A DNA stretch of 63,317 nt, counting the filler, from Chrysochromulina tobinii (lineage: Eukaryota), in assembly GCA_001275005.1 (NCBI GenBank). It is 5 parts of 5 records of this genome, joined end to end, with 100 filler letters (N's around TTAATTAATTAA, not from the genome) between each part and the next. Parts side by side here need not be neighbours in the genome. Positions count along the whole stretch, not along the records: positions 20,364 to 39,054 come from JWZX01001360.1; 4 more parts are not named here. The stretch is one strand, 5' to 3'. Under the pieces are notes generated by a model that saw only the letters and a program-made list of their open reading frames with translations, was not told the origin of the DNA and ran no database searches. Shown one piece after another: positions 12,201 through 52,848 of the stretch; the first letter of the stretch is position 1, and every line of letters starts with the position of its first letter. The position numbers and the translations under genes were made by a program.

Positions 12201-14507
12201 ACTTGAAGGCGCGTTTGGAGGCCACCGCAGCGGAGGATGACGAGCAGCCGATGGCGGTTGAAGAGGAGGAGGAGGAGGAGGAGGACAATGAGGACGACGA
12301 GCCGGTGGCCGAGGCGGTGGCCGAGGCAGCTGCTGAGCTAGCTGAGCGCGACGAGGACGCGGCCATGTACGGCGTGTGCCTGGCCGCTGGCGACAAGCTC
12401 GAGGCAAAGGACCCGTACGGTAACTGGTACGTCGCCAAGGTGATTGGTGTGCGCGGCGAGGGCGAGACGCGCGAGGTCAAGGTGCACTACATGGGGTGGA
12501 AGGCGCGCTTTGACGAGTGGGTGCATGTGGGCACCGGGCGGCTGAAGCCCGAGGGTGGTCCCTCGCCGCCGCGGCCCGCGTCTGACGCGATGATCGCGCT
12601 CCTCAAAGCTCCCGAGGCGACCAAGGGCGCGTCTTCCCTCAAGGGCCTCTCACGTCGCGACAAGGGGTTGTCCACCGCGATGCTCATCTCGGTGGGCGGC
12701 AGCCGCCGCGCCGTGGCGAGCGCCTCGAGCGCCTCGCGCTCGCTCGTGCCCTATGAGCTCACTGGAGCGGTGGCGCAGCCATCGAACAGGCGAACGACCC
12801 ACGCCCAAGGCGGCCGGCGCGCGCGGCGGCGCGCTTGGCGCCGGCGGCGGGCGCGCGGGCGGCATGTGCATTGTGGTGCTCGACGAGCTCGACCAGCTTG
12901 TGAGCCGCCAGCAGGCGATCCTGTACTACCTCTTCGAGCTCGCGGCCCGGCCTGGCTCGCGCTTGGTGCTCATCGGCGTCGCGAACGCGCTCGACTTGAT
13001 CGACCACTCGCTGCCGCGGCTCGATGCCAAGGGGGCGGCGCCAACACTGCTCAAGTTCAACCCATACTCTCACGACGAGCTCTCGTCGATCATCCAGCAG
13101 CGTTTGGAGCCCATCGAGGCGACGCTCGGCACGACGCTCGTCGATCGGATGGCGGTGACCTTTGCGGCCAAGAAGGTGGCGGCCGCATCGGGCGACGCGC
13201 GCCGCGCGCTCGAGGTATGCCGCGTTGCTGCCGACAAGGCGATCGCCGAGCTCAAGGACTTTGAGGAACGTTTGCCACCGCCGCCGAGCCGCACAGCGCG
13301 CGCCGCGCCCTACGGCGCGCCGTACATGATGCGCGGCAAGTCGCCGCTCGCTCCGCGCCCATCGCCCCTCATCAGCGATGCCGAGCGGCAGCGCGCGTCC
13401 ACAGCCGCAGCGAGCGGCGCTGCCGGCGTGAGCTGCGGCGCCGGCGCGGGCGCGACGCCCAGTTGCACGCCGAGCGGGGCCGGAGCGCTGACGGCGGGCG
13501 CTGAGGTCTCGCGACTCGCGTTGCGGCCGCAGTTGCCACCGCGGCTGCCTGTGTCGGCCAGGGGGTCGGCCGTGCCGCCCTCGTCCGTTGGATCCGACGC
13601 ATCTGCCGCCTCGGCTGCCTCCACGGCCATCGCCACTGCTCCGGGCATGCTGCCGCCGCCCGCCTCTGCGTCTGCCGCCTCGAGCGCCGCCGGTTCGTCC
13701 TCCGCGGGCTCATCCTCTGGCGCAGCCGCGGGCGCCTCTGCGGACGTCTCCGGCGGCACCGAGCTGCTTCCCGCGTGGTCCGCGGACCCGCCGATCCGCT
13801 TCGATCACATGAAAGATGCGCTCGGCGTCGCGTTCCGCAGTGCTTCGTTCCAATTGCTCAAGTCGCTGCCGCACCACCAGTCACTCATCTTGTGCACGAT
13901 GGTGCTGCGCATGCGTCGGCTGACTCAGCAGGTGCGGGACGAGGCGGCGCGAGCGGCCGAGGCGGCCAAGAGGGCGGCCGAGGATGCGGCCGAGGCGGCG
14001 GCCAAGGAGGCGTGCACGCGCGAAGGCCCGGAGGCGGAGGCTGGTGCCGAGGCTGACCGCGGTGCGGATGCGGCCGAGGGTCACACCTCCGACGGTGCCG
14101 TCGCCAAGGTTGCCGCCGCCGCCAGGGGCAACGGGCGCGGCAGCGGTCGGACGACGAGCGCCGCCGCGGCAGCGGCTGCCGCCGCTGCGAGTGCCGCAGC
14201 CGTGAGCCGCGCGGCCGCGCTCGCAGCGGCCACGGGCGGGCACGAGCGGTGTACAATCAACATGCTGTCGGCGGAGTACGACAAGCTGTGCGCGAAGGCG
14301 AAGCTGCCTGCGCTCTCGCGGCAGGAGCTCGCCAACATGTGCGAGAACCTCGCCGTGTGCGGGCTACTCGGGCTCGGCGGCGCCACCGGCCGCCCCTCGC
14401 CCCACGAGAAACTGCAGCGCGCCGTTTGGCTGTGCATTTCGCAGGACGATCTGGAGCTCGCTACGTCCGAGCTGCGCGTATTCAAGCAGATGCTCGCGAC
14501 GAGCTGA
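6256..14507 (+). CDS. CDC6: CDC6/ORC1-family AAA+ replication initiator (CDC6-like) with PHD finger and an internal Tudor/chromo-barrel array
   Basis: Exon 1 6256-6351, then GT-AG intron 6352-6424, giving SAYEAKRAKNMEDNAE|ELRKLGL. PHD finger CEVC..LLLCD..C..YH..C..WLCPEC at ~6638-6785. Walker A YVSGSPGLGKS at ~7205-7237. Walker B IVVLDELDQL at ~12870, then LIGVANALDL, SGDARRALEVCR and a winged-helix-like C-terminus. A +1 frame change near 12750-12860 is unresolved (intron or indel). Confidence 0.8.
9290..12550 (+). repeat. Ten coding chromo-barrel/Tudor-knot repeats (~60 aa), preceded by one Tudor/Agenet-like unit at ~8885-9075
   Basis: Consensus VG[DE]KL.A.D..G.WY.AKVV...GEG..R..KVH[YF].GW..R[FW]DEW..VG.GRL recurs at ~9293, 9613, 10085, 10385, 10628, 10963, 11315, 11672, 11990 and 12385. 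Units 1/8 and 4/7 are near-identical at the DNA level. Confidence 0.9.
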
Positions 14508-19412: not shown

Positions 19413-19451
19413 CCGAACCGGTCAACGTTCTCCTTTCATCAGGGCACACTC

Positions 19452-19833
19452 GTACCGGTAAAAAGACACCGGGGGAGCCGGGACACTCATCACGGGACAC
19501 ACGGGACACGTTCTCTTTCATCAGGGCACACTCGTACCGGTAAAAAGACACCGGGGGAGCCGGGACACTCATCACGGGACACACGGGACACGTGGACGCA
19601 CAAAGGCACACAGACCACACAGACGAACCTCACAACCATCCAAACCCAGTTCCAACAACACACACCCAGCACGTCAGCGCGACGACCGAAGCCGCGGCCG
19701 ACTCAACAGCCGCAGGCCCCCGGGAGCCGACCGCTCCCCGCGGCCGACTCAGAAGAGGCCGCCCCCAGCGAACCCGACCCTTACCGTAGTCCGTACCGTG
19801 TGTGTCCCGGCTCCCCCGGTGTCTTACCGGTAC
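19452..19833. mobile_element. MITE-like non-autonomous DNA element with ~33-bp terminal inverted repeats; left end tandemly duplicated
   Basis: GTACCGGTAAAAAGACACCGGGGGAGCCGGGACAC at 19452 and 19534 is the inverse of GTGTCCCGGCTCCCCCGGTGTCTTACCGGTAC at ~19802-19833. The internal sequence is shared with 28840-29070. Confidence 0.75.
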
Positions 19834-20263: not shown

Positions 20264-20363
20264 NNNNNNNNNNNNNNNNNNNNNNNNNNNNNNNNNNNNN
20301 NNNNNNNTTAATTAATTAANNNNNNNNNNNNNNNNNNNNNNNNNNNNNNNNNNNNNNNNNNNN
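20264..20363. other. Artificial contig-join linker
   Basis: N44-TTAATTAATTAA-N44 (six-frame stop linker). Confidence 0.97.
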
Positions 20364-20674: not shown

Positions 20675-22462
20675 ATGTACATGATATCGCCGAGCGTCGG
20701 CCACGGGTATGCGACGCGTGTGGTGAGCACGGTGGCGGCGACCGCGAACGAGGACGCCGAAGAGGGTGATAGCACCGACATCTGGGATAAGGACGTCGAG
20801 GCCGCGGGCAACTGGTTTGGCAACTCGGGCAAGAGGCTGCTCGATGCGACTAAGCACACAGCCAGGGACGTCATTCGACCCGTGCTGATGCCCATCCAGC
20901 AGGTCGGTCGGCGCGGCCGCCAGGCCTCCATGTCCGCACTCGCGCGCTCGCTGCCGCGCATCGTCGAGGCCTCGCTGCCTAAGGTGCGCCAGAAGCTCGA
21001 GGAGATCTTCCGCGACTGGGCCCTCGGCCGTATCGATGTCAACCAGCAGTGGCACATCCCCGACCACATTGCCCTGGCCGTCGAGCTGAGCGATGAGATC
21101 CTCGGTCCAGCGCGCGCCGCAGAGGCGCGCGCGCGCAGCTCGTCGCCGACGACGCAGCCGGACCCGTCGGTGCCGGCACCCGCCGTGGAGGGTTCCTTAT
21201 TTGGCAATTCGAACCCTTGGTCGGCCGTCCAACGAACCTTTGACGAATCCCGACGAACCCTGGGTCGCGCCGCGTCGTCGGTGGGGAGCACGGCCCACCA
21301 GGCCCTCGGCACCCTCACCGGAGGCAGCCTCGGCTTCAAGGAGCCCGAGATCGGCGAGATAATCGCCGAGCTCCAATGCATGCTCACCAACGTCTCACGC
21401 GCCGTCGCGCACGGCGCAGAGGCCGGGAGCGGCGGCGCTGGGCCCAATAAGGCAGCCGGCCGTGCGTCGCCGCCGCCGCCGCCGCCCGCGCCGGAGGCGA
21501 GCGCCACGTTGAGCGCCACGCCCTCCAAGACGGCGCCCAAGGAGCCCACGACGGCGCCCAAGGAGCCCACGACGGCGCCTAAAGATCGTCGCTCAGTGAC
21601 GAAGATCGCCTTCGAGACAGGCGCGCACTGATGAGCCCTGATTGCCACTGATGACCTATGATGATGACGAAGATCGCCTTCGAGATAGGTGCGCATGCCT
21701 TGTGGCAACAGGGCCCATGCCTTTGGGGGCAACAGTGCACATGCTTGCCCCTATCTCTGCTCGCCCTCTGCGCGCCTTCCGATGGCCTCCCTGATGACCT
21801 CGGAGTGACCTCCCTGATGACCTCGGAGTGACCTCCCTGATGACCTCATAGTGACCTCCCTGATGACCTCATAGTGACCTCCCTGATGACCTCGGATGGC
21901 CACTCATTGACTCGCCCTTTCGCCCGACACGACGCCCGTCACAGATGTCGACTTAATGATCCGATTGCGACCAGAGGCGGGGCTTCAAGTTCGGGGCTAC
22001 CTCGCGCCAGGTAATGACCCTGGATTACCCTTGATGACCCTTGATGACCTCTGATGACCTCTGATGGCCTCTGATGACCTCTGATGACCGCTGATGACCG
22101 CTGATGACCTCTGATGACCTCTTGATGACCGCTGATGACCGCTGAGGACCTCGAAGTGCCACCGAGTGCCACTGCTGATGACCTCCCTCATCAGGCGCGC
22201 GCTCGCAGTGATTGCCGCTGATGACCTATGATGATGAGCTCGGATTGCATCCCTCATCAGGCGCGCGCTACAGGCGGGGCAAGGAGGCCAAGGGCGGCAG
22301 CTGGCTCGGGTGCCTCGCCGGCGGCGGCGCGGACGACGCTGCGAGTGCCCAGTACGGCGCGACCCGGAGCGACCCCACGGATTATCAGCCCTTGTCCGAC
22401 GGGCAGGACGAGGCGAGCGCTGTGTCGAGCGCTGGCCTCCAACGCAGCAGCAGCAGCTACAA

Positions 22463-22503
<41 letters not shown>

Positions 22504-25500
22504 GCGGCGGCGGTGGCGAAGGTAGCAGCAGCAGCAGCAGCAGCAGCAGTAGCGAAGGGTACTGCCGCTATTCGCTACTCGTCGTGCGCCCGTTGGTAGT
22601 GACCCTCAAGAGTCGTCTCCGCATCTGGTGCGATCTCCCTTGATTGCTCTTAATTGGCCTTGATTGGTAATCACTCTGAAGAGTCGTCTCCGCATCTGGT
22701 GCGATCTCCCTTGATTGCTCTTAATTGGCCTTGATTGGTAGTGACTCTCAAGAGTCGTCTCCGCATCTGGTGCGCTGATGGCTACTGATGGCTACTGATG
22801 ACTACTGATGGCGTCCCTCATCGCATGCTGATGCCCGATTGCGTGGACGAACCCGAATCAGCGTCTGATGGCCTCCCTCATTGCATGCTGAGGCCCGATT
22901 GCGCACCTCATCAGGTGGGACTTGCGCGACGGCATCCTCAACGTCGCCTTCCTGCCGCGTGAACCCGTTGGGCAGCCCCGCGCCTCGGCGAGCGCCGTCG
23001 CGGGCGTGGCCGGGGCGGCCGAGATGCCCGCGGACTTTGGCGGCGGAGGTGGCGGCGGCAGTCCGAGCGAAGGCAGCAGCAGTACGTATCGGAGTGCCTT
23101 CCATGGTGGCATGCATGTGCTCACCACGGCGCTATCCCCTCTTCCCCACAGGTACGTATCGGAGTGCCTTCCATGGTGGCGCCGCCTCTCTGCAAGTGCA
23201 GGTGAGGACCTCTGATGGCCTCTGATGATGACTGATGATTGCGTTTGATTATCTCCAACTGATCTTCACTGAGCTACCTTTCTGCGCACAGGCGGCCGTT
23301 CACTTGTGCAACTGCTTGCCCGTTTGCGCCGACGGTCTGATACGCAAGATCCTCGAGTGCGCTCCCGAGATTGCTCCCGAGATTGCCTCCTTGATTGCTT
23401 CCGAGATTGCCTCCTTGATTGCTCCCGAGATTGCCTCCTTGATTGCTCCCGAGATTGCCTCCTTGATTGCTCCCGAGATAGCCTCCTTGATTGCTCCCGA
23501 GATTGCTCCCGAGATTGTTCCCGGATGCCGCCCCGATGTCCGTGGATGGCATGCTGATTGCCCCTCCTCATCAGGTGCGTCTTCGGGGGCTTCAGTGCCG
23601 AGAAGCCGTTACGAGTGCCGTTGATCGTGCCGGTAGCGTTCCGGGTCGCTGAGGACCTCGAAGACGATCACGACTCGCTCGCATCCCTCAATGGCGTGGT
23701 GCGCTGATGGCTACTGATTGGCTACTGATTGCCCTATGATTGCCCTATGATTGCCCTCTGATTGCTCGCGCTCCTCCACGGCGTGGTGCGCTGATGGCTG
23801 GTGGTTCGGGTTGATGATTTGCTGTTGGAGTGCGCTCGGATTGGATTGTGTCTGAGTGCGCCTGATTGCGTCCCTCATCAGGTGCGCGAGGCGACGCGCG
23901 TGCTCCTCGCGTTGACGAACCCGAGCAGGTGGGACTTGATTGCCACTGATGACTACTGATGGCCTCCCTCATTGCACGCTGAGTCCCAATTGCGTTGACG
24001 AACCCGAATCAGCGTCTGATGGCCTCCCTCATTGCATGCTGATGCCCGATTGCGTTGACGAACCCTCATCAGCGTCGACTCCGCCATCCCGAAGGCCGTG
24101 CTCAAGAGGGCCAAGGGGCTCGTGATCATCACGCGCCTCTGCGCCGGCTTCCTGCACGTGGGCGGCGGCTTCGGCTCGGGCATCATGCTGCGCCGGCTGG
24201 ACGAAACTCATTGGTCGGGGCCTGTGAGTGTGAACACCATCAGTCTGAATATGGGGCTGATGATGGGTATGCGGAAGAGCGATACGCTGCTCTGATGACC
24301 TCTAATGACCTCTGATGACCTCTGATGACCTCTGATGGCATCCCTCATCAGGTATGCGGAAGAGCGATACGCTGCTCTGCCTGCTCGATGACGCCGCAAT
24401 CAACGTGAGTGCTGCCCCCCCTGCGGGCATGCTGACTGGCCGGCGATGACCTCAGGCTTGCATGCTGATGGCATGGCGGGCATGCTGACTGGCCGGTGAT
24501 GACCTCAGGCTTGCATGACCGAATGCATGCTGATGGCATGGCCGATTGCATGCCGATTGCATGCTAATGGCATGCGCATGGCACGCTGATGGCCTCCCTC
24601 ATCAGGTGTTCAGCAAAGCGATCGACGGTCTGGGTCAGCTGAAATTAGGGACGCAGGGTGCTATCGCCGCAGGCCCTGTAGGTCGTGATGCGGCCCTCGA
24701 TGGCTACTTCTCCCAGGTGATGACCTCTGATGACCTCTGATTGCCCTCGATGGCTACTTCTCCCAGGTGATGACCTCTGATGACCTCTGATTGCCCTCGA
24801 TGGCTACTTCTCCCAGGTGATGACCTCTGATGATCTCTGATTGCCCTCGATGGCTACTTCTCCCAGGTGATGACCTCTGATGACCTCTGATTGCCCTCGA
24901 TCGTGTGCTCATCTCGCAGGTGATGACCTCTGATGACCTCTGATGACCTCTAATGACCTCTAATGACCTCTGATTACCCTCGATCGTGTGCTCTTATCGC
25001 AGGGCGGCGTCGCCTCCATCTTGTCATACTCGCACTCTCAAGGCGTCTTCGGAGGTGATTGCATTCTAATGACCTCTAATGACCTCTGATTGCACTTGTC
25101 ATACTCGCACTCTCAAGGCGTCTTCGGAGGAACGTCTATCGATGACCTCTAATGACCTCTAATGACCACTCTAATGACCTCTAATGACCACTCTGATGGC
25201 CTCTAATGGCCGCTGATGGCCGCTGATTGCCTCCCTCATCAGGAGCGACTATGGAGGGCGCCGTCCTGTTCGGGCGCCAAGCCGATAATGAGGAGTACTA
25301 TTTTCGCGAGGGCGTCACCGCCAAGGAGATCCTGTAAGGGCTAGGATGATGATGATGATGGCATGCTGATTGCATTCTGATTGCATATTGATGGCGTGTT
25401 GATGTGTTGACGGCGTGTTGATGACATCCCTCATCAGGTACGGGCTGGTCGAGCCCCCAAAGGATGAGGACGCCCTCGCCCTCTATGCTGTTCTCATGGA

Positions 25501-27051
25501 GCTCACCTCACTGAATGCCCCGGAGGACGGCGGGAGCGCGGGCGCTGCTGCCGCCGCCGCCGCCAGCGCCGTCGCCTCCGCCGCCCCCATCACCGCCGCC
25601 GCGAACGCCGCGTCCGCCGCGTCTGAGGCGATGGGGTTACATGTAACGGCCGCGTCTGAGGCGATGGGGTTACATGTAACGGCTCTCGGACGAACCTTGA
25701 GTCGTGGGGTGAGCTCCGGCGCCCTCGCAGCCTCGGATGGCGTGAGCTCGGTGGGGCAGGTGCGATCTCCCTTGATGGCTCTTAATTGGCCTTGATTGCC
25801 CTCGCCGCCTCGGATGGCGTGAGCTCGGTGGGGCAGGTGCGATCTCCGTTGATGGCTCTTAATTGGCCTTGATTGCTCTTGATTATCCTTGATTACCCTC
25901 GCCACCTCGCCTCTCCGATTCCATTGATGGGCTCGCATTGGCTCTGATGAGCCATCAATGGAGTCATTGATTGCTCTTAATTAGCCATTGATGGGCTCGC
26001 ATTGGCTCTGATGAGCCATCAATGGAGTCATTGATTGCTCTTAATTAGCCATTGATGGGCTCGCATTGGCTCTGATGAGCGGCAGGGTGTCCAGACGTTC
26101 GGCGAGGGCGTCGGCCACGGTCTGCGCGTGCTGCATCGAGCTTCCTCTGATGGCGTCTACGCGGTCGGGGAAGGCGTGGGCTCTCTCGGTACAAATATGG
26201 GCATGGGCGTCCATGCGGTCGGTACTAACGTCGGCCAAGGCATGCAGCACGGGGTCCAACCTGATTGCATGCTGATGGCATGCAGCACGGGGTCCAACCT
26301 GATTGCATGCTGATTGCATGCAGCACGGGGTCCAACCTGATTGCATGCTGATGGCATGCAGCACGGGGTCCAACCCGATTGCATGCTGATTGCATGCCGA
26401 GTGCGTGCTGATGGCGTGCCGATGGCATGCTGATGGCCTCCCTCATCAGGCGTGCAGGCGGTCGGCGGAGCCGTAGGCCAAGGTTTCGTCAACGTAGGCC
26501 AAGGCTTCGTCAACGTAGGCCAAGGTTTCGGCGCCGTCGGGCAGGGCTTGCAGGCGGTCGGCGGCGCGGTCGGCCAGGGCTTCGTCAGCGGTTCGTCAAC
26601 GGTGCTGGCGGTTGGCCAGGGCTTCGGAGCTTTCTTTGGCGGAGGCGGAGGCGGAGGCGGAGGAGGAGACTATCGAGGGTCGATGGGGATGGGCGATCGT
26701 ACCGCCTCGTCGTCTTCGCTCTCGGTCGAAGCGCCGATGAGCACTCCTAATTTGGGAGGAGGCACTCCTAATTTGGGAGAAGGCACCCCCCTCCCACCGC
26801 CTCGTCGAGGGATGGGCGAGCGCGCCCCGTCGCTGTCCTCGATGCCCGAGTTGTCCGTCATGTCGATCTCGATGCCCGAGATGTACATCTCGATGCCGGA
26901 GGCGGATCGAGCCGCCTCGCCGACGACCCCATCGCCGATCGAACGTGCCCAGGACGGCGCGCTGAGCCGCCAGTCGTCCGGCGCCCAGGACGGCGCTCTT
27001 AGCCGCCAGTCGTCCGATGGCACTCTCACGTCGGCCATCCATTTATGGTAG
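20675..27051 (+). CDS. Multi-exon gene containing a SYLF/Ysc84 actin- and lipid-binding domain; exon boundaries approximate
   Basis: Spliced exons across ~23882-25510 give VREATRVLLALTNPSSVDSAIPKAVLKRAKGLVIITRLCAGFLHVGGGFGSGIMLRRLDETHWSGP...GLMMGMRKSDTLLCL...LKLGTQGAIAAGPVGRDA...ILSYSHSQGVFGG..MEGAVLFGRQADNEEYY..GVTAKEIL. There are more than 12 repeat-rich introns. Confidence 0.75.
23361..23517 (+). repeat. Intronic 12/24-bp minisatellite (GATTGCTCCCGA / GATTGCCTCCTT)
   Basis: Direct tandem array inside an intron that ends in CCTCATCAG at ~23575. Confidence 0.85.
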
Positions 27052-28106: not shown

Positions 28107-28721
28107 TCACCTCTTCCCATTTTTGGGCACGTTCACATGGCCGTATGGGCAGTGCCTACAACCGTGGCCGCAGCACGGGCGAGTCTTGAGCTGGAGCGCT
28201 GTGAAGACCGAGTACCCCGTCGCCGGGTCCACGTACTGCTCGTACCCACGCTCACAGGCTACACGGTGGAGCAGCGACACAGTCGCCTTCTCTTGCCCAT
28301 CCACGAGGTCTTCAATGTCCTCAAAGTCCTCCGCCAGAGCGCTGTCTCGGCGGATCTGCTGAAGCCTCAGTGGCCCGGCTTTCCGCAGAAGTGGCCTTGC
28401 AGGCAGCGCCTCGGACTGCGACGCGACCGCTGCGGTCGCCAAGGCTGAGGATGCCGTGCCGACCGATGGCATGTCTGGCGTGTCCGTGGTTCTCTGGAGA
28501 TTCGCTGGCTGCACGGCGAGCGTTTCGCCGCGGCCGTCGATTTGCACAGCGCAGTACCCGGAGGGATCCCCGGAGGCCTCGTCCCAAGACACCACACGGC
28601 CATTGAGCCCGTTGAGCTCAAAGCTCGAACCGCTGAATCCGTACAGCGTCACCAGCTTACCAACGTACGAGATTGACTCTGACTGTGGCGCTGTTGTAGG
28701 TGGCGGCGCTGCTGGGAGCAT
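28107..28721 (-). CDS. DUF5522/C1orf53-like Cys-rich protein with N-terminal SH3/KOW-like module
   Basis: C-terminal HRVAC..G...YVDPATGYSVFT...L..RPCCGHGCRHCPY. N-terminal GKLVTLYG....ELNGLNGRVVSWD...AVQ.DG....AVQPANL. Likely ATG at 28721. Confidence 0.75.
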   Translation of the reverse strand: MLPAAPPPTTAPQSESISYVGKLVTLYGFSGSSFELNGLNGRVVSWDEASGDPSGYCAVQIDGRGETLAVQPANLQRTTDTPDMPSVGTASSALATAAVASQSEALPARPLLRKAGPLRLQQIRRDSALAEDFEDIEDLVDGQEKATVSLLHRVACERGYEQYVDPATGYSVFTALQLKTRPCCGHGCRHCPYGHVNVPKNGKR

Positions 28722-28839
28722 GAGCGAAGGACGTTTGCGCCGGACGCGGAGACGACGTCGAAGGCGCAGGCGTCGTCGTTGTACATTGGCGATCCAAAAC
28801 AAGACAAGTCAAGTCAAGTCAATCGTTCCTTCAGAACCT

Positions 28840-29110
28840 GTACCGGTAAAAAGACACCGGGGGGAGCCGGGACTCACACGGACACGCGGACGCACAAAGG
28901 CACACGGACCGCACAGACGAACCTCACAACCATCCAAACCCAACACACAACCAGCACGTCAGCGCGACGACCGAAGCCGCGGCCGACTCAAGAGCCGCAG
29001 GCCCGGAGTCGACCGCCCCCCGCGGCCGACTCAGAAGAGGCCACCCCCAGCGAACCCGACCCTGCCTCCACCCGCTCCCAGAGCGCCTCCCCGCGCCTGT
29101 ACCGGTACTG
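28840..29110. mobile_element. Second, right-truncated copy of the MITE-like element
   Basis: Same left TIR (GTACCGGTAAAAAGACACCGGGGGGAGCCGGGAC) and internal GACGAACCTCACAACCATCCAAACCC...CAGCGAACCCGACCCT as 19534-19780, on a different contig. Confidence 0.75.
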
Positions 29111-29253
29111 TACTCACTCTTCTCAGCCACTCCATTCACATTCTCATTGTGAATGGGGGCTCCCGAAACCTTGAGGGGAAAACGATGCGGAGCGTTCACA
29201 CCAATCCAAAACCCCCGCGGCCGTCACGAGCGCGTCACTTCGGTCACTTTGGC

Positions 29254-32200
29254 ATGGAAGCACTGCTTGTAGCGCCGCTCAACCCGGACGAAGGCCAGGC
29301 CAATCCGAACTCGAGCCTCGTCGATTCTGCACGCGCCCTCTGGTTCGGACCCAAGCCCTCGGCCTCCTCAACTCAGATGCGGATGACGTCTGCCAGCGAC
29401 ATCTTCAGGGACGCCACGCTCATCGATGACCCGCGATGGGATGAGAAGGGATTCAATGAATTCAGCGGAATGCATGCGCGATTCGTGAGCCTCGCGTACG
29501 TGAAGGGCATCAAGGACGGGAGATTCACGCCGAGCAGGGGTCGGGCTGATGTGGACGGCGCCCAGTTTCATGATCTGCGCGACGATAAACTGCGTCACGC
29601 TGGCAAGACGCGAGACAAGGTCGGGCTCTTCGCTGTGCTCTCAGCTACGAGCTTCGACTACACAGGCGAGCTCAGCAACGTAGGCGAGGCGATCCGAAAG
29701 GTGGAGGCAGCGGAAATCGTCAAAATCGTCGAGAGCAAAAAAGGAGGCGGCAAAGACGACGACCTCATCATGTGGGACTTTTTGTGCGTCGACAAGGCCG
29801 ACGACGGCGCCAAGCTCGGCATGTATCGCATGTTCACCCACTACCGCGTGCAGACGGTCATCCTCACGAAGCCGCCCGGAGTGCGCCGCTCGGTCTTCGA
29901 GCGGCTCGAGACGATGGCGATGCTTGCGCTCGTCGCCTTTTGCCAGCGCATCGTCAACCACGAGGACGTCAAGGAAGGTCTCGAGCTGGACAAATTGATG
30001 GATCTTCCCAATTTGCTCGCGCCGCTCCAGTCCGACCACAAGACATTTCTCCGGGTCGCCTCTACGCTCGAGGCCGTCATCAAGCATCTCAAGCCAGTTG
30101 CCGAGGATGAGAAGGGCTTCAAAGTCCTTTGCTCCGAGGGCGACATCGCGTGGGTCAAAGCGACCTACCTCAAGGAGCTCCAGCGTGCCATGCCGACCGA
30201 CGGTGGACGCCCATTCCCAAGGCGGCAGGACCTCGATCAGAGCAAGCTGTTCACGGGCGAGCCACCAAAGCGCAAGGCGATCGTCGTCTCGCACGGCTGG
30301 GACACGGCGTTCCACATCAGCCCCTCCGGTGAAAAGCTCGATCTCCTCGTCGATGCGCTCGAGCGAGTCGATGCCATGACGGACGACGATGGCGTCTTCA
30401 TAGACTTTTGCTCGCTACCTCAGGCGGCGCACGCCTCGATGCCCAGCATCTACTTTCAGCACAATGGCATCAAGACGTATGCTGACAAGAGCGCGCTCGA
30501 GAAGAAGCAGTTTAACTTCGCGATGTGGGACATGTCGCGCATGTACGCCTACTCGTATGTGATCGTGCTTCCCAAACCGACCGATATCACCAAGTTCCCG
30601 GGTGACACGAGCGCGCCGCTGCTGGCCAAGGATATGAAGCTGGTACTGGACGGCGAGGACGTCCTCGTAGAGGGCACTGACCCTCGGATTGTCATTCAAT
30701 ATTGTGTCAAGAATGGGAAGGCGAAGACCGACGGCTCGCAGTCCTTTATCCTCGATCGTGACCTGGCCTTTGCCGACAACGTCGAGTTCCCCGTGGGCAG
30801 CTTGAAGGTTGTACTCTCCAACGTGTGCGGATGGGGGCGCGTCAGCCCCCTGCCGTATCAGAATCGTGGCTGGTGCTGCTCGGAGTTTACGATGGCCCTG
30901 TACAATCGGCGCATCCTCAACACGAAGGACGTCGCCCAATTGACCTACATGGACAGCGGCCGCCCGTGGCCCAAGACCGTCGCGGAGTACGATCAGATGA
31001 TGCGATCCGGCGTGGAGTTCACCAAACGCGGTGACGCGGACCTCGTCAAGTTCCTCTTCTTCCGCATGTGCTTTGGGCTGCGTCACTCCTTTTTCCCGTT
31101 CGAGGTGCAGGACACGACGGGCTACGGGCTGCCGAGCGAGGCGGATCTCATGGCTGCGTCACGCGAGGGGCAAGTCGGCACCGGTGTCAATGACCAGTCC
31201 AAGTACTACCTCTACCTGGCCTTACAGCCGCCCGCTGTCCAGCTGGACGGGCGGATCTGGAAGCGGAGCCTCGCACAGAAGCTCCATCGCATGCAGCTGC
31301 TCATGATTGCAAAGGCGCCGCACTGGACGGGGCACGGGCACCACCCCGTAGCCTTCGGGATTGGCGATCGCGAGATGACCGAGAGCGATCTGCGCCGTGG
31401 TGGCATCCACTGCCTGGTGTGGTGCTCGACCGGGTGCGGATGGGAGACGCCAAAGCCTTCCAGCGATCCAAAGTCCCTGAGCATCCCTGGGCTCTGTGAA
31501 GTGCTCACGAGCCTGGAGCCGACCAAGCGGCCCGCCGTCATCTTTGTTGTGATGCCGTACGGTGCGAGGCGTGCTGCAGGCCAGCTAGCTCACGCCCTTG
31601 CAGGCGGCAGCACGCTGGTCGTGTGGATCGCGGAGAACATGCTCGACGAGCAGCGGGCCAACGGCGTCCTCTTTGGCGTGCTCGCTCCGGCTTTGCAGTC
31701 GCTTCATGAGCCTTGGATCAACGGTCTCTCCCGCAGCGAGTTCACATCCGAGGTGCTGCACAAATCGGGGCAGATGGTCTTTGGCTCGCAGTGGGATGCG
31801 GCCGACTGCCTTGACGTGTCGACGACAGTTCCGCAGCTGCGCTGGGCGCCGTCGAGCCTGCCGCAGGACCGCCCGTGGGTGCATAATCTCACCTCGTCGT
31901 TTGAAGGAATGGCACTGCCGAGGGACGGTGCGGTGCAAACTAGGCGGATGATGGGCACAGACGACGACAAGGGCGAGCAGCGTTACCTCGAGGTGCAACT
32001 CATAGTGCGCGAGAATGGCAAGGAGATCGATGTGCCGCAACTGTTTGCGAGGGAGGATGGCCAAACGCCTGAGATTGTCTTTGCTTGGCTGGCAAAGGCA
32101 CTACCCAACGGGGATGCGAAGAACGTGACTGCCCTGTATTCTCACGAGGTCAAGAGGGCTTCCGGTGGTTGGATGAGCACGCTGCAGGTGCGGCTGATGA

Positions 32201-35200
32201 TCGGCGAGGTGGGCTATCTGCACCAGCTGCGCGACTTGGCGCTGACGGGTGCGCCAAGTATACTGGAGAAAGAGCTGAGCAGTGCATTGCTCGACGGCCG
32301 TCGCTACGAGGTCTCTGTGGACCGTGCGCAGTTTGCTCTGTCCTACGAGGAGAGTGTCTTATCACTCGATAAGCTCACCGTGCACCAGAAAGAGAAGCTC
32401 CGAGAGTGCTACGGCACGGCCGAGTCCAACCCGCTCCATCGTCTGCTTCGCCGCTCGCAAGAGCTCTTCGACGGCACGGCCACACCAAGCTACATCCACG
32501 TCGAGGCTCCTGCAGGGGCGGGCAAGACCTTTGTGGCGCTCAACTACCTGCTTAGCCGGCTGCAGAGCCATCCGACTATGACGGCGCTGTACGTTGCGCG
32601 GAACCGTGCCCTCTGCCTCTTTTTCGTCCGCTGGATCATCAAACGCGAGCCCAACCCGCTCAATCGTCTGGGACTGCTGCGCCGCTTGCAAGTGCTCTTC
32701 GAGGGCGACGAGCGTGAACCTCCGTTTGCACTTGGCCCGCAGCGAGTCATGCTCAAAAATGGCGTCATCCAGGTTGAGTCATCTCACTCGGACACGCACA
32801 ATTTCAGCCTGACGATCGTCGACGAGGCGCATCATATTTACACAAACCCTCTGTGCCGCGAGTGCGTCGGGGCCTATGTGCTGCCGCCGACAGAGGCGAG
32901 ACACCTCATGCTGCTCTCAGACATCTCGCAGTCGAGTGGCAAGGACAAGGAGCTCTATCCCAAGGGAAAGCCGAAGGTTGTCACGCTCACGGAGGTCGTG
33001 CGCTCCTCGCAGCGCATCGTTGAGGCGGCCTCTGTATTCCAGCTGGGCGACTCCGTGCACAAGATCTCATGCCAGCACTCGGCAGCCGGCCCCCCGCTCA
33101 AGGCCTTCATGTTCAACCTCGAAGGCGCGGTACCAGATGCGGTGCCATTGATGAAGGACCTCAATGACGGCCAGGTCCGCCAATACGCTGGCCAGACCGT
33201 TGAGGCCATCAAGCACATCATCTCGATGTTCGGCTCCCTGCGGCTGCACGACCGCGTTGCGATCGTCGTCGACGTTGACATACTGAATGACTTCCGAGGC
33301 ACCTTTTCCGCGGGGGCATACCAGGGTGGCTTGCTCGGTGCAGAGCTGCTTGAGCACTTTATGAGGCGAGAGTCGGCGACGAAGCAGCAGATTGAGGCTG
33401 GGCACGCCCGATCCTTTCAGATCATCGACGCGACGCAGGCGGCATCGATGGTGATGGGCGGCAGCCAGGACGATCGCGAGTGGCTGATCGTGGACACGAT
33501 CGAGGCGTTCGATGGGCTGGAGAGGCTCGTCGTGATCGCCGTAGGCCTCGATGCCAAGATTGTCCAAGGTGACAAGACGCTCAAGACACGATCGTTACTC
33601 TACCGAGCGATGACTCGCGCGCACATGCTCGCCATCGTCGTTCAGCACAACATCCCCGGCGGCTTCTTTGCCTTCCTCCATCAAGTCAAGCTCGATCCTT
33701 CTGCTGAATTTGATGCCGCGAAGGCGCAAAAGGCGCGCGACAGCACGGCGCTCAACAAGGTGATGACAAAGGGAAAGGCGTCCTCAGCCACAGAGCAAGC
33801 CGAGATGACCGTCCCATCATTGTCGACCGCAGTTCGAAGCCTCTTTAGCCGATTGGTGGGGAAAGTCGAGGTGAACTTTCCAGCATTGTCAACCACAGTT
33901 CGAAGCCTCTTCAGCCGATTGGTGGGGAAAGCCTCTTCAGCCGTTGCTGGTAGTGACGCGGCCGCAGACAGGGCTGCGCTCGAGGCCGGCGAAAAGAAGG
34001 TGGCGACCTTGTATCTCACCACGCTCGGCCACCTCATCTGCGCCTCGCTGTTGCTCGCCAAGTGGGAATCGCTAGAGGACCTCAATGGCGGCCCGCTCAA
34101 CGGCACGCGCTTCGATAGCCTGCCGACCCACGACGCTCCGGGCCTCTCCTGGTTCAGCGTCTTTGTGCCCTCGTGGATCGCTGAGCTCATCGTGGTTGGG
34201 ATGGCGATCTGGTCCGTCATGTTACTGCCGTCGACGGCGCGCAACCTGCGCATCCAGCACATCAACACGATCGCGCAGACGATTCTGTGCGCGCTCTTCC
34301 AGCTGCTCTTAGCTATCCGGCTCACCACCCAGCGTGGCTCGTGGCTGGTCGTCTTCTCGCCATGGTACGCATCGATGCTCGTACAGGTCTTCTTACACTG
34401 CCGCAAGATTCCTGATGCCGCCGGATTATTCCGCGGCTTGCGGCCAGGCTTACCGATCGGTTTCCGGCAAGTGCTCGCCCTCATGTTCTCGATTCCCATG
34501 GAGAATTATTTCCACTCAGACTATTTGGACTACTCGGGGCCCCAGCTGAACTACTCATACTCATACCCAGAGAACTTGACAGCTTTACTTTTGGAGTCCT
34601 CGACTACAGCTGTTGATTTCTCCCAGACTTTGACAGATGAACCTATGGTGATCAACACGGTCTTTCCTTATGTTGTGACTGCGCTACTGACTGCGCTTGT
34701 GACTGCGATACTGACTCTGCTATGGCTCAAAAAACAACTACTCAGGTCAAGACTCGCTTTTCAAAAATTCCTTTGGGTATACTCAACCGTCGTGTCCTTT
34801 ACTTCCTCATTCGGTTTGTTTTTCCGCCTCCCAGAGGGTTTACAAGGCATAGTATCCGCGCGCGGCGTCCTTGAGCCGTACATCATCGTAGAGTCCATCC
34901 CGCTGCTGCTTGGGTGCGTGTGGCTCGCAATCATCTCGTTCTCGTCGGTGCAGCGCGAGCGCAGCGGCCTGGGCACGCGTGGAGCATCACTGAGCTCTAT
35001 CCGAGTGGAGCGCGTAGTGGCCGAGGGAGGCAAAACCTCTTCAAACAACGCTGGTAGCGGCGCAGCCTCTTCAGCCAACGCTTGTAGCTGTGCGGCCTCT
35101 TCAGCCAGTGCTGGCAGCGGCGCGGCCTCTTCAGCCAGTGCTGGCAGCGGCGCGGCCTCTTCAGACGACGCTGGTAGCGGCGCAGCCTCTTCAGCCAACG

Positions 35201-39054: not shown

Positions 39055-39154
39055 NNNNNNNNNNNNNNNNNNNNNNNNNNNNNNNNNNNNNNNNNNNNTT
39101 AATTAATTAANNNNNNNNNNNNNNNNNNNNNNNNNNNNNNNNNNNNNNNNNNNN
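39055..39154. other. Artificial contig-join linker
   Basis: N44-TTAATTAATTAA-N44. Confidence 0.97.
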
Positions 39155-42100
39155 CAATCCGTCGGGAGGCTCGCTGAACAACGCGGGCCCGGTGCGCACG
39201 AGCCACGCGTCCGAGGATCCAGTCAAGACCTTCCGCATCAGCTTGCCCACAGACCTCAGCGGCCCTCCAACCGCGTGGATGGGTGGCGGGGTGATCACCG
39301 AGAAGAAGGAGGCCACGACCGTGCACTTCCGCTCGTTTGCCGAGTGCGTGCACAAGCCGGGCGGCGTGGTGATGGCGGGCGACGGCACGCAGGGCTTCCT
39401 GATGACCGACATGACCTTCTCGATGGTCGAGCTCCAGCTACACGTCGCACAGCAGGGCGTGTACGCCTTCGAGGAAGCCTCGGGGCGGTTGCCCAACATC
39501 AACGACGCGGCGGATGCCGCACAGGTAGTGGCGCTCGCAGAGGAGTTCGAGGCGGCGACGGGTGTGCTCGGCGGCATGGGGCTCGAGGTGGACGAGAGCG
39601 TCACCGCGCGCGTCGCCATGCACTGCCGCGTCGAGTTGCAACCCATGTCCGCCTTCTGGGGCGGCGTGGTCGCGCAGGAGCTTGTCAAGGTGGCGGGCAA
39701 GTACGCGGGCCGAGAGCCTCGGAGTGCCTCATGCACGCGTCTCATTGCCTCTGGAGTGCCCATGGACTGTCCTCATAGCCTCCCTCTTCACTCAGGTACA
39801 CGCCCATCCAGCAGTTCTTGCACCTACAGTCCTTCGCGGCGCTGCCCCGAGACGGCGCCGTCGGCCGAGGATGCCCGCGCCGCTTGGGCTGCCGGTATGA
39901 CGATATGATCGCTGTGTATGGCCGAGCTTTCCAGGAGCGGCTGGGCGAGCTCCGTGTCTTCATGGTCGGCTGCGGTGCGCTCGGCTGCGAGTTCATGAAG
40001 AACTTCGCCCTGCTCGGCGTGTGCTGTGGGCCGACCGGCTCGCTCGTGGTGACCGATAATGACCGCATTGAGGTGTCAAACCTCAACCGCCAGGTACGCT
40101 GATTGTCGATGATTGCCACTGATGATAACGACCGCATTGAGGTGTCGAACCTCAACCGCCAGGTACGCTGATTGTCGATGATAGCCACGGGTGATTGCCC
40201 GTGATGTCCACTGATGAGCGGCCAATCGTCCGAATATGGCAGTTCCTCTTCCGCGAGGATAACGTGGGGAAGCCCAAGTCAGAAGCGGCCGCGGCACGCG
40301 CGCTCACGATGAACCCGAGCCTCAACATCGAGGCCAAGCAAGACCTGGTTGCCAATACGACGGAGCACATCTTCGACACCGACTTTTGGAACGGCCTCGA
40401 TCTCGTGTGCAATGCGCTCGACAACATGAAGGCGCGCCTGTACGTCGACGCGCAGTGCATCTTCTATGAGAAGCCACTGCTCGAATCGGGGACGATGGGG
40501 ACGGGCGCGAACGTGGACATCGTCGTGCCGCACTTGACTCGCTCCTATGCCGACGGTGGTGCGGCCGATGAGGGCGGCGGCGTGCCCATGTGCACGCTGC
40601 GCAACTTCCCGCACTTGATCGACCACTGTATCGAATGGGCTCGGGCAAAGTTCGAGGACCTCTTCGCCGACCCGGCCCAGAAGGCGGCCAAGGTGCTCGA
40701 GGACGTCAAGAGTTTCGTCAAGAAGACGCGCAGTGAGACGCTGCAGGCGACCGACGGACGCTCCTCCAAGATCTCCAAGGAGATTCCGAAGCTCAAGAGC
40801 TGATCGCCACGCTCGAGATGGGCACCAAAGGCCCCACGATGAGTGATGCCGTCGCGCTGGCGTGGGCAGCCTTCCATGAGCTCTTCCGCGACATCCTTCT
40901 CGACCTGACCGAGCAGTTCCCGGACGGCTCCAAGGATAAGAAGGGAGAGCCGTTTTGGAGTGGGCACAAGCGCTTCCCCAAGGCCGCCCACTACGACGCG
41001 TCAAACCCGGAGCATGTCGCGTTCATGCTCGCCACGAGCAACCTGTTCGCGGCGATGCTCGGCATCCCGGGTGAGAAGCCCGGCGAGCAAGCTCCGACTT
41101 CGAATTGCATGCGTGTGCTCACTACGGCGCCCCTTCCCCCTTCCCACAGGTAAGAAGCCCCCGTCGGAGCTCAACCAGCCCGGCCCGATGCGCTGGCAGG
41201 CGCCGTACCGGTCCGCGGAGTGGCTCGCGGGGATGCTCGCCAAAATAGGTGGCCCGCCCGAGCGCGTCAAGGGTGCCGTCGAGATCGACGGCGAGGAGAA
41301 GAAAGAGGGCGCGGACGACATGGCCAGGGAGGAGGCGGAGCTCGAGCAGCTGCTCACGCGCATCGCCGACATGGGCGCTGGGGCTAAGGGCCACTTCGAA
41401 TCGGCGGACTTCGAAAAGGACGACGACGACAACTTCCACATCGACTTCATCACCGCGTGCTCGAATCTGCGTGCGTCCAACTACCACATACCGACGACGT
41501 CGCGCCACAAATGCAAGATGATCGCTGGGCGCATCATCCCTGCGATTGCGACGACGACCGCCTCGGTCACTGGACTGGTGATGCTCGAGATGTTCAAGGT
41601 GCTCCAAAACAAGCCGACAGCGCAGCTGCGCAACGGCAACTACGACCTCGGATCGAACCAGTACATGCTGTTTGAGGCCGAGCCGCCTGCGCAGCTGGCG
41701 ACCAAGGTGATCGCCTCTGCTTGCCTATGGTTGCCACTGATTGCCATTAATTGCCACTGATTGCCACTGATTGCCTCTGATTGCCTCTGGTGTTCGAAGA
41801 CGAGCCACCCGTGCAGCTATCCACCAAGGTGGATAGACGATGCTCATCTCAAGGCCTCCTGTCGCCCTCCCCTGATGGCCTCCCTCATTGCATGCAGGTG
41901 GAGATCACGATGCCCGACCCCAAGGATCACCCTGACGCGTACGACGCCAAGGGCAACCTCGTCGACATGTACAAGGACCCCGACATGATGCTCGGCTTTG
42001 CGGAGCGGGTGCGCTGCTTCCCAGACCCGGGATGACCTCTCTGATGACCTCTGATGACCTCTGATGACCTCTGATGACGTCTGATTGCCTCACACCTCAG

Positions 42101-42698
42101 GTGCGCTGCTACCCAGACCCGCACACAAAGTACGACAAGATGTGGGTGGGCCCGGTGGCACCCACAGCGACGGTGCAGCAGCTGCGCGAGGCGATCGACG
42201 CGTGCTTTGCCGAGGCGGGTCTCAAGGCGGCGATGATCAACGGACCGACACAGCGGATCGAGTGCGAGAAGGACGAACACAACGCATCGGGCATCAAGGC
42301 GGGCTCGCGATCGCTGTGGAATCCTCTCCTCTCGTCCACCAAGGCCAACCTCGAGAAGCCGTGGGGTGCGCTGCTCTGATGACCTCTGATGACGTCTGAT
42401 GACCTCTGATGACGTCTGATGGCCTCACTCATCAGGTCCGCTGCTCAAGGAGCTGACCACGCGCGACGAGATCAGGTGGCAGACCGTCGACGACCCCGTC
42501 GATGTGAGTGGCAAGCGGCTGTGTACTGACCTGACCATCCAGCTACAGAACGACGACGGCGACGACGTGAAGACGCCCACCATCATCATCAAGCTCATGC
42601 CGTTTGAGTTCATCTCGTACAAGGCGCGAACAGTGCGCGAGGTGATGCCGTGGCTCAAAGACTATGCCCAGAAACGAAGCTTAACCGTGGTCAAGTAG
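39155..42698 (+). CDS. UBA1: Ubiquitin-activating enzyme E1 (5' end missing), multi-exon
   Basis: [90 protein letters not shown], catalytic [23 protein letters not shown] and [12 protein letters not shown]. Introns include ~39702-39795, 40094-40241, 41071-41149, 41708-41898, 42009-42100 and 42366-42435. Confidence 0.93.
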
Positions 42699-52831: not shown

Positions 52832-52848
52832 CTGTTAGAACATCTGTG

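What the first reader, a model, noticed from the sequence alone, without database searches (positions are those of the whole stretch)
21590..26450. 'Echo' introns: each intron carries a copy of its neighbouring exon sequence (SYLF gene)
Seen: intron 24267-24351 begins with GTATGCGGAAGAGCGATACGCTGCTCTG, identical to the first 28 nt of the next exon. Intron 23082-23151 begins with the same 29 nt as the next exon (GTACGTATCGGAGTGCCTTCCATGGTGGC). Other introns re-copy the end of the previous exon plus its donor: 3x at 22600-22775, 4x GCCCTCGATGGCTACTTCTCCCAGGTGATGACC at 24692-24900, 36 nt at 25020/25095, 2x at 25729-25870, and 21597/21666. Filler is CTGATGACCT/CTAATGACCT/CTGATTGC repeats and the acceptor is usually CC(C/T)CCTCATCAG. 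Inference: the introns are generated by variable-length duplication of exonic DNA that supplies the GT/GC donor, plus an inserted repeat cassette supplying branch point and acceptor. Possible routes are staggered-break repair, template switching or target-primed insertion. This differs from TIR-type introners (Micromonas, Aureococcus), which have short fixed TSDs.
Basis: partly seen in the sequence, partly recalled or inferred. Interest (0 to 1): 0.87.

Follow-up and report, generated by a model that had tools for sequence, protein, structure and literature searches.

The report
Algal introns born from copied exons
In a Chrysochromulina alga, many introns carry copies of the neighbouring exon next to a shared repeat filler, and several are missing in close relatives; they likely arise when DNA copying or repair slips between an exon and an existing intron, which would be a route to new introns that needs no classical transposon.

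Summary
Across two genes, 12 of 23 introns score ≥30 against their own junction versus 4 of 478 mismatched pairs. The organism belongs to the Chrysochromulina tobinii/parva group. Two kinds are mixed. Birth-type echoes (1–29 nt, no inverted repeats) open the intron and supply the donor; filler and acceptor are shared with other introns. Intron 9 and 4 of 8 sites in a second gene (UBA1) are empty in close relatives; no outgroup ORF is interrupted at a UBA1 site it covers. Other echoes look like later tandem duplications inside existing introns. Two echoes run across the spliced junction, so their template lacked the intron. Switch points show microhomology to filler. Best reading (0.55): DNA template switching or break repair that copies from existing introns; main rival: RNA-templated insertion (0.25). 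The scan noted one such intron earlier elsewhere in this genome (e1-2577349). A published introner screen lists no family for C. tobinii. New variant of known intron-gain routes; interest 0.72.

The parts
20675..27051 (+). SYLF/Ysc84-domain gene, 16 exons and 15 introns, one ORF of 1136 aa (exons 20675-21620, 21945-22010, 22261-22627, 22915-23081, 23152-23201, 23292-23356, 23575-23698, 23882-23928, 24073-24266, 24352-24404, 24606-24716, 25003-25054, 25243-25333, 25438-25759, 26086-26239, 26450-27051)
   Evidence: Single open frame; colinear with homologues P0179/P0197/P0201 across the conserved junctions; weak Ysc84 hits on two exons, E 0.003-0.004, below cut-off; homologues carry PF04366 or a SYLF name
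21621..21944 (+). I1 (GC donor); internal copy of the exon-1 end plus donor at 21665-21691, likely a later duplication
   Evidence: sister-group ORFs read into this intron without the echo
22011..22260 (+). I2; acceptor plus start of exon 3 present twice (22186-22203 and 22252-22269)
   Evidence: sequence; an RNA contig begins to fit at the second acceptor (X12 record 3)
22628..22914 (+). I3; two further copies of exon-3 end plus donor (71-nt unit); its 3' half shares about 118 nt with I8, including the exon-8-like piece
23082..23151 (+). I4; 29-nt copy of the start of exon 5 (donor), then the 'family 2' acceptor segment shared with UBA1 introns
   Evidence: the segment continues into many other contexts in the DNA run (loose ends at 23109 and 23132)
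23699..23881 (+). I7; 6-nt start shared with exon 8; internal diverged copy of exon-7 end plus donor (23764-23791)
   Evidence: length fixed by RNA contig X12 record 4
23929..24072 (+). I8; starts with the first 10 nt of exon 4; exon-8-end-like copies at 23992-24016 and at its 3' end
   Evidence: sequence; RNA contig X12 record 4
24267..24351 (+). I9; 28-nt copy of the start of exon 10 (donor) + 10-nt filler + acceptor; site empty in relatives
   Evidence: RNA contig X14 record 20; 8 of 15 listed relative ORFs run through the site, 2 end like this intron
24717..25002 (+). I11; array of units of filler + exon-11 end: three exact copies (24743, 24793, 24843) and two diverged ones, the last supplying the acceptor
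   Evidence: the diverged copies were judged by eye
25055..25242 (+). I12; junction-spanning echo at 25095-25142 (35 nt of exon 12 continuing into a diverged start of exon 13)
   Evidence: the exon-13 part alone is matched as well by 0.2% of random CDS positions
25760..26085 (+). I14; copy of exon-14 end plus donor (25798-25837; 77-nt unit)
26240..26449 (+). I15 (GC donor); 38-nt internal tandem array, only a weak 8-nt echo; I5, I6, I10 and I13 likewise have no clear echo
39701..42435 (+). Second gene (ubiquitin-activating enzyme E1, another contig): six introns of the same build at 39701-39795, 40094-40242, 41071-41149, 41707-41897, 42009-42100, 42366-42435; empty sites after 39524 and 40692 where strain B has introns
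41788..41854 (+). Diverged junction-spanning echo in the UBA1 intron 41707-41897 (41 nt of upstream exon + 28 nt of downstream exon), present in both strains
   Evidence: downstream part alone matched as well by 0.04% and 0.17% of random CDS positions

Best explanation
These are spliceosomal introns of a Chrysochromulina alga, built from a variable-length duplication of exon DNA plus repeat filler and an acceptor shared with other introns, and they likely arise when a DNA polymerase, during replication slippage or break repair, leaves an exon at a short microhomology, copies filler and the 3' splice site from an existing intron, and returns to the exon a little upstream. Shown: the anatomy, the empty sites in relatives, splicing of four SYLF introns, excess microhomology where filler re-enters exon copies, and two echoes that cross the spliced junction. 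Inferred: the return point duplicates 1-29 nt of exon. The insertion survives only if the duplicate begins with a usable GT/GC donor (or a single G joins the filler to make one), so the mRNA is unchanged. The filler would supply branch points and stops. Inferred: the same slippage keeps acting inside existing introns, where it is nearly neutral, and makes the 'exon end + donor', 'acceptor + exon start' and whole-intron arrays. Inferred, weaker: templates are often introns of the same gene, so intron-rich genes would get richer. Polymerase theta or MMBIR is a guess from general knowledge; no enzyme was tested.
For: Empty sites. Strain B (L014; CDS 97.5% identical) has two precise introns absent from this strain, one with an 18-nt echo that matches the uninterrupted allele at 17 of 18 nt. 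Genomic read-through ORFs of relatives lack the introns at UBA1 aa 786 and 1009 and differ at 353 and 660. SYLF I9 is absent in 8 of 15 listed ORFs. Polarity. None of 15 hand-picked outgroup UBA1 ORFs (59-83% identical, contigs 4-52 kb) is interrupted at a site it covers; 12 cover all 8 sites, and 2 show read-through of their own introns elsewhere. At aa 1009 the echo shares a derived Arg codon with the exon of intron-bearing strains, whereas intronless relatives and the closest outgroups have Leu or Ile. Template without the intron. Junction-spanning echoes in SYLF I12 and the UBA1 aa-972 intron. Microhomology. Filler-to-exon entries sum to 25 nt over 8 junctions versus 9.6 expected, reached by 0 of 2000 resamplings; 20 versus 6.0 with a longer seed. 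Local templates. Private 18-mers are shared by 10 of 133 same-gene intron pairs versus 1 of 143 other pairs; I3 and I8 share 118 nt. Proto-splice context. 17 of 23 downstream exons start GT/GC and 18 of 23 upstream exons end in G. No inverted repeats (mean score 10.2 versus 10.0, 24 introns).
Against: The microhomology signal is strong mainly at entries, most of which belong to secondary duplications. At exits from birth-type echoes it is weak: 15 versus 7.7 over 7 junctions (2 skipped), 10 versus 4.5 over 5 (4 skipped). Two of those 7 exits show none, and alignment extension inflates both tests by roughly 0.3-0.5 nt per junction (my estimate). The same-gene excess falls to 12 of 133 versus 5 of 143 with 14-mers, pairs are not independent, and later gene conversion would give the same signal. 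The family-2 acceptor segment is a discrete 44-47-nt piece shared across genes, as a mobile element would be. Most relative states come from protein ORFs, not DNA; some outgroup ORFs could be transcripts. Only two genes and 24 introns were analysed; there is no genome-wide count. L008 and L014 differ on both flanks of UBA1, so they may not be strict alleles. The exon-8-like piece in I3/I8 could be a common cassette that happens to resemble exon 8.
Confidence: 0.55

Rival explanations
1. RNA-templated insertion: excised intron RNA, or a short SINE-like element, is reverse-transcribed at a staggered nick by a LINE-type enzyme, giving a fixed 3' end at the acceptor, a variably truncated 5' end and a variable target duplication that supplies the donor. 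The internal arrays would then be a separate, later slippage process.
For: Variable duplications of about 11-29 nt, inserts ending exactly at the acceptor AG, no inverted repeats; a discrete family-2 segment in three introns of two genes that continues into many contexts in the DNA run. Junction-spanning echoes could be cDNA of spliced mRNA. Non-LTR introners exist (PMC12130899, passages). An earlier unchecked scan note reads a 15-nt case as a mobile family.
Against: No A-rich tail in any intron read. All 25 exact copies of the commonest 10-nt filler in the window lie on the coding strand inside these two genes, none between genes; small sample. Precise ends are also what selection for clean splicing would leave. 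Needs two mechanisms where junction microhomology suggests one. No reverse transcriptase partner was sought.
Confidence: 0.25
2. The introns are old. Echoes come only from tandem duplication across existing splice sites, an 'acceptor + exon start' duplicate sometimes replaces the old 5' half, and empty sites are intron losses.
For: Acceptor-side duplicates exist (I2; 0-3 extra copies in I8 of relatives; seven-unit intron in L014). Direct repeats would favour precise deletion. A duplication across an intron-exon boundary made an intron in potato (PMC4974935, abstract).
Against: No outgroup ORF is interrupted at a covered site. None of 39 more distant loci has an intron at exactly these positions; two fall one codon away, at about 40-47% identity. 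Junction-spanning echoes cannot be copied from the intron-bearing gene. The derived codon in the aa-1009 echo postdates the split from the intronless group.
Confidence: 0.12
3. A classical DNA-transposon introner (MITE-like) whose ends have decayed into repeats.
For: Marine Chrysochromulina MAGs hold many introners, one family with a 4-bp TSD and no TIR (bioRxiv 2022.06.06.494994 passages; supplement rows). Co-opting the donor from the TSD is known in dinoflagellates.
Against: Duplication length varies from 1 to 29 nt, no inverted repeats, even the polymorphic introns differ in build, and C. tobinii is listed with 0 introner families.
Confidence: 0.05
4. Assembly artefact caused by the repeats.
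For: The window has a few single-base indels against an independent assembly of the same strain; array copy numbers are unresolved by short reads.
Against: Unitigs of a DNA run bridge most echoes without differences, RNA contigs skip the right lengths, and echoes recur with substitutions in another strain and in unrelated ORF sets.
Confidence: 0.03

Closest known systems
Intron gain at staggered double-strand breaks in Daphnia pulex (PMC4202315, passages; review PMC3443670, passages)
   Same: Presence/absence polymorphism within a species group; direct repeat of the adjacent exon at the far end of the new intron; later internal duplications lengthen young introns.
   Different: Daphnia repeats are 4-12 bp and the inserted DNA mostly has no known source. 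Here repeats reach 29 nt, supply the donor, and the insert is recognisable filler and acceptor DNA from other introns.
[quoted passage not shown]
   Same: Donor taken from duplicated target DNA, acceptor brought in, mRNA unchanged, proto-splice context.
   Different: Those have fixed 3-8-nt TSDs per family and, for Symbiodinium, inverted repeats. Here the length varies per site, there are no inverted repeats, and introns are mosaics of low-complexity filler rather than copies of one element.
Emiliania huxleyi introner fam24 (PMC12130899 supplementary file 8, row seen)
   Same: Haptophyte; listed as 'co-opt 5' carry 3'', unknown mechanism, noted with '10bp terminal direct repeats'.
   Different: Five copies, automated TSD call of 2 nt; no description of variable exon duplication. 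I saw only the table row, not the sequences.
[quoted passage not shown]
   Same: Splice sites come from duplicated gene sequence; I11 and I8 end in copies of the upstream exon, and I2 has a duplicated acceptor.
   Different: In that model the intron is the duplicated segment itself. Here foreign filler lies between the copies, and new sites appear hundreds of bases from any intron.
Tandem and non-tandem duplications with locally templated insertions from error-prone break repair (PMC7407515, passages)
   Same: Microhomology at switch points, several nearby templates, 10-1000-bp insertions.
   Different: Described as genome scars; the passages I saw do not describe them as a recurring source of precisely spliced introns.

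Membership tests
DNA-transposon introner (MITE-like) | Terminal inverted repeats | tested here: not met
   First 30 nt versus reverse complement of last 30 nt: mean 10.2 versus 10.0 for mismatched pairs, 24 introns
DNA-transposon introner (MITE-like) | Fixed short TSD per family | tested here: not met
   Match of intron start to next exon ranges from 0 to 29 nt; the three family-2 introns have 29, 11-16 and 18 nt
Introner (any mechanism) | Many near-identical full-length copies | tested here: inconclusive
   Filler bins reach depth 126,221 against 41-119 in single-copy bins, and a 44-47-nt acceptor segment recurs, but no two non-orthologous introns of 24 are alike end to end; no genome was held
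Introner (any mechanism) | One splice site carried, the other co-opted from target DNA, mRNA unchanged | tested here: met
   I4, I9 and UBA1 aa 353, 786, 1009
Introner (any mechanism) | Empty sites in relatives | tested here: met
   4 of 8 UBA1 sites and SYLF I9
Introner (any mechanism) | Autonomous partner or mobilising enzyme | not testable with these tools
   No whole genome held
Target-primed retro-insertion (SINE/LINE-like) | Variable-length TSD with fixed 3' end (features recalled from general knowledge) | tested here: met
   3' ends at shared acceptor motifs
Target-primed retro-insertion (SINE/LINE-like) | A-rich tail; copies on both strands and outside genes | tested here: not met
   No tail; filler 25 on the coding strand versus 0 on the other in the window; the sample is 63 kb only
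Tandem-duplication (AGGT) intron gain | Intron made solely of the duplicated exonic segment | tested here: not met
   Exon-derived share of each intron is 1-41%
Daphnia-type break-repair intron gain | Direct repeat of adjacent exon at the opposite intron end, with polymorphism | tested here: met
Daphnia-type break-repair intron gain | Origin at a repaired double-strand break | not testable with these tools
   Needs induced breaks or mutation-accumulation lines
SYLF/Ysc84 domain protein (host gene) | PF04366 domain | tested here: met
   Two exons hit Ysc84 weakly, below cut-off; full-length homologues carry PF04366 and cluster members are named SYLF

The most novel reading that the evidence does not exclude
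Introns beget introns without any transposon: in this algal group existing introns act as local DNA templates, exon sites that resemble the filler are predictable hot spots, and gains are still segregating, so one mutational process explains intron birth, intron growth and the clustering of 15 introns in one gene beside intron-free giant genes.
Probability: 0.4. Interest if true: 0.88.

Novelty: new variant of a known kind. Interest (0 to 1): 0.72.

Why it matters
The source of most new introns is an open question (PMC3443670, passages), and recent screens credit transposons. Those screens look for families of look-alike introns and list none for C. tobinii, so they would miss a mosaic, low-complexity process like this one. 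Here each young intron keeps a readable record of its target duplication, switch points and probable template. Presence/absence variants exist among close relatives of a cultured, reportedly haploid alga (PMC4580454, passages). That makes rate, site choice, template choice and the DNA-versus-RNA question directly testable.

Tried and rejected
No whole genome was held and the related loci gave no genome handles, so there is no genome-wide count. Filler/acceptor motif scans found 0 matches in viral contigs and 0 in prokaryote genomes. The idea that echoes come from diverged alleles was not supported: 22 of 40 differences fall at third codon positions and 18 of 40 are synonymous, about what a neutral copy beside a constrained exon would give, and the copies are not independent. 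I8 as a junction-spanning echo is not supported (downstream part matched by 40% of random positions). The first microhomology test was discarded: exon-derived pieces were left in the pool and one intron was offset by a base; one search replaces it. The end of exon 7 was moved 3 nt on RNA evidence. The joints table was swamped by repeats and gave no intron. Spanning RNA contigs in the listed rows confirm only I7+I8 and I9+I10, as summed lengths; the other 11 junctions, including I4 and I12, rest on the open frame, homologues and contigs that stop at exon edges. RNA runs also hold intron sequence. 39 of the 76 loci were spliced-aligned and 3 more; they are mostly too distant to test position conservation. 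Five of 15 listed ORFs at the exon-9 end break off into filler just before the I9 site; this may be a separate duplication-with-filler event, but without DNA I do not count it. Literature searches found no description of this intron build in Chrysochromulina. Subscription papers are not covered, the supplement of PMC9860276 was cut when stored, and files 13-14 of PMC12130899 were not searched. I recall 10-11-nt intron repeats being reported for Emiliania huxleyi; searches did not retrieve that report.
Full report
Setting. The window is five joined contigs at about 63% GC. The protein of a second gene in it clusters with Chrysochromulina tobinii KOO22127.1 and a C. parva model, and exon 1 of the flagged gene clusters with C. 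tobinii KOO33987.1. The organism is therefore a haptophyte of the C. tobinii/parva group. No whole genome was available.

Gene model. Sixteen exons between 20675 and 27051 give one ORF of 1136 aa with 15 GT-AG or GC-AG introns. It is colinear with full-length homologues across the conserved junctions, and those carry the SYLF/Ysc84 domain. RNA contigs (table 8) fix two stretches. X12 record 4 joins exons 7 and 9 with 45 bases between the fitted pieces, which fits removal of I7 and I8 only if exon 7 ends at 23698. X14 record 20 joins exons 9 and 11 with 54 bases between, which fits removal of the 85-nt I9 and the 201-nt I10. Because the 28-nt duplicate gives the same mRNA wherever it is cut, the exact donor of I9 is inferred from GT-AG. 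Other RNA contigs start or stop at predicted exon edges (22258, 23575, 24717, 26241, 26448). The remaining 11 introns have no spanning RNA contig in the rows shown.

Observation. All listed duplications are there. Aligning each intron to the spliced sequence within 70 nt of its own junction gives score ≥30 in 12 of 23 introns against 4 of 478 mismatched pairs; intron start versus next-exon start scores ≥6 in 8 of 23 against 8 of 308. In the SYLF gene 10 of 15 introns reach score 24 and five do not. DNA unitigs bridge most echoes without a difference, and filler bins are up to about 2,000 times deeper than single-copy bins, so the filler is abundant genome-wide. The same build recurs in the UBA1 gene on another contig and in a further gene of locus L014.

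Anatomy. Four echo types can be told apart. (a) The intron opens with a copy of the next exon, which supplies the donor: I4 29 nt, I9 28 nt, and in UBA1 21, 18, 11-16 and 11 nt. These grade down to 1-6 nt, where a single G plus the filler makes the donor. (b) Exon end plus donor repeated inside the intron: I1, I3, I7, I11, I14, UBA1 aa 510. (c) Acceptor plus exon start repeated: I2. (d) A copy that runs from the upstream exon straight into the downstream exon: I12 (-35 to +13) and UBA1 aa 972 (-41 to +28). For (d) the downstream part alone is matched as well by 0.2% and 0.04-0.17% of random CDS positions, and far better than by the intron's own start. The rest of each intron is 10-11-nt filler and one of a few acceptor segments. 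YTRAY, the branch-point consensus as I recall it, occurs 37 per kb on the sense strand against 4.7 antisense and 3.6 in CDS, and near the 3' end in 19 of 24 introns against 10% of CDS windows. Nineteen of 24 introns have stops in all three frames. There are no terminal inverted repeats.

Empty sites. A scan for UBA1 relatives returned 76 loci. L008 and L038 are this strain; L014, L016 and L037 are a second one with 97.5% identical CDS. Spliced alignment gives six introns in this strain and eight in the other. One extra intron (76 nt) opens with an 18-nt echo that matches this strain's uninterrupted allele at 17 of 18 nt, better than its own downstream exon (16 of 18). The other (265 nt) duplicates only 3 nt. 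ORFs called on genomic contigs read into introns and so report intron state. Among those listed, the aa-786 intron is present in 8 and absent in 6, the aa-1009 intron is absent in all 13 of a sister group that cover it, aa 353 is present in 1 and absent in 3, and aa 660 differs within both groups. For SYLF itself, of 15 listed members of a 26-member cluster, 8 run through the I9 site, 2 end as this window's I9 would, and 5 break off into filler just before it. These states are read from proteins, not DNA.

Direction. Fifteen outgroup UBA1 ORFs, hand-picked from the 177 proteins then held for contigs over 4 kb (59-83% identical, about eight clusters), show no interruption at any site they cover. 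Twelve cover all eight sites, some on contigs of 14-52 kb, and two carry read-through insertions of their own elsewhere. None of 39 more distant loci has an intron at exactly these positions; two fall one codon away at low identity. At aa 1009 both the exon and the echo of intron-bearing strains encode Arg where the intronless group and the closest marine outgroups have Leu or Ile, so the duplication is younger than that change. Type (d) echoes require a template without the intron. Gain is the simpler reading; loss in some lineages is not excluded.

Secondary duplications. All 15 listed ORFs of a sister group read from exon 1 into I1 without the filler-plus-echo segment that this strain has, and relatives carry 0, 1 or 3 extra acceptor-plus-exon copies in I8. 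Types (b) and (c) therefore come and go inside standing introns and are most likely not birth events.

Mechanism. With exon-derived pieces masked from the comparison pool, the points where filler re-enters an exon copy share 25 nt of microhomology over 8 junctions against 9.6 expected (0 of 2000 resamplings; 1 junction skipped). Exits from exon copy into filler share 15 against 7.7 over 7 junctions (P 0.008; 2 skipped) and 10 against 4.5 with a longer seed (P 0.03; 4 skipped). Alignment extension inflates both, so I trust the entry result and treat the exit result as weak. Private 18-mers link 10 of 133 same-gene intron pairs but 1 of 143 other pairs; with 14-mers it is 12 against 5. I3 and I8 share 118 nt, I3 holds an exon-8-like piece and I8 begins with the first 10 nt of exon 4. 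Downstream exons start GT or GC in 17 of 23 cases and upstream exons end in G in 18 of 23. I infer a polymerase that leaves an exon at a microhomology, copies filler and acceptor from another intron, and returns upstream, with selection keeping only inserts that splice out cleanly; repeated switches give type (d), and the same slip inside an intron gives (b), (c) and whole-intron arrays. Error-prone repair is known to make duplications with locally templated inserts (PMC7407515, passages). I put this at 0.55. Target-primed insertion of intron RNA fits the variable duplication, the exact acceptor end and the discrete family-2 segment (0.25), but no tail and no intergenic or antisense copies were seen in 63 kb. 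Old introns with duplication and loss only: 0.12. Classical DNA introner: 0.05. Artefact: 0.03.

Comparison. It works like Daphnia break-repair gains (4-12-bp repeats, mostly unknown insert source) and like introners that co-opt the donor from a TSD. It fails the fixed-TSD and inverted-repeat tests, and it is not the pure tandem-duplication model. Marine Chrysochromulina MAGs have introners, and one small Emiliania family is noted with 10-bp terminal direct repeats. C. tobinii is listed with 0 families. Nine searches found no account of this build, within the limits of an open-access library and partly unseen supplements. An earlier unchecked note of this scan describes a 15-nt case in another gene of this genome and reads it as a mobile family; another describes stacked intron units in a different eukaryote. 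I saw both after forming my reading.

Verdict. A real feature and a new variant of known intron-gain routes, apparently ongoing and invisible to family-based introner screens. The mechanism is inferred from two genes and 24 introns. Interest 0.72.

Noticed in passing
window 20264-20363, 39055-39154, 51894-51993, 60785-60884: The window is five contigs joined by N spacers; the SYLF and UBA1 genes are on different contigs.
   Followed up: yes
L014 450-925: One intron made of seven 68-nt units, each opening with a 12-nt copy of the next exon. The first and last units end in CAG and the five inner ones in CAC, so most spare acceptors are disabled.
   Followed up: partly
window 6143-13264 and 28363-38037: Uninterrupted ORFs of 2373 and 3224 aa lie close to a gene with 15 introns; the genome average is reported as about one intron per gene. 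Introns look strongly clustered.
   Followed up: partly
window 39155-40800 versus L008: The window's UBA1 has a net three extra bases before 40654 and one missing base near 40797 relative to the 99.97%-identical L008, breaking the frame; probably sequencing errors.
   Followed up: partly
L008 1-9950 and L014 1-9950, 15020-19883: UBA1 copies with 97.5% identical CDS have unrelated flanks on both sides. The annotated C. tobinii protein P0128 matches the upstream ORF of L008 and the downstream ORF of L014, suggesting rearrangement round the gene and a fused gene model.
   Followed up: partly
window 52235-58131: A satellite of about 145-150-nt units (53362-55838) lies between 95%-identical 215-nt direct repeats (52235-52445 and 56856-57068), with a further 268-nt duplicate (56566-56833 and 57864-58131); LTR-like layout.
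   Followed up: no
window 19425-19781: An 82-nt tandem repeat whose sequence recurs at 28840-29063 and in L014 18989-19029; a small dispersed intergenic repeat.
   Followed up: no
protein P0121 (UBA1 aa-972 site): Its translation jumps from the exon end straight into the echo inside the intron, as if an AG within the echo were used as acceptor or the stretch were deleted.
   Followed up: no
proteins P0179 and P0198: A relative's SYLF ORF has a 31-aa read-through insertion a few codons after the I3 position and runs without a break across the other aligned sites, suggesting a nearly intron-free orthologue with one intron of its own.
   Followed up: partly
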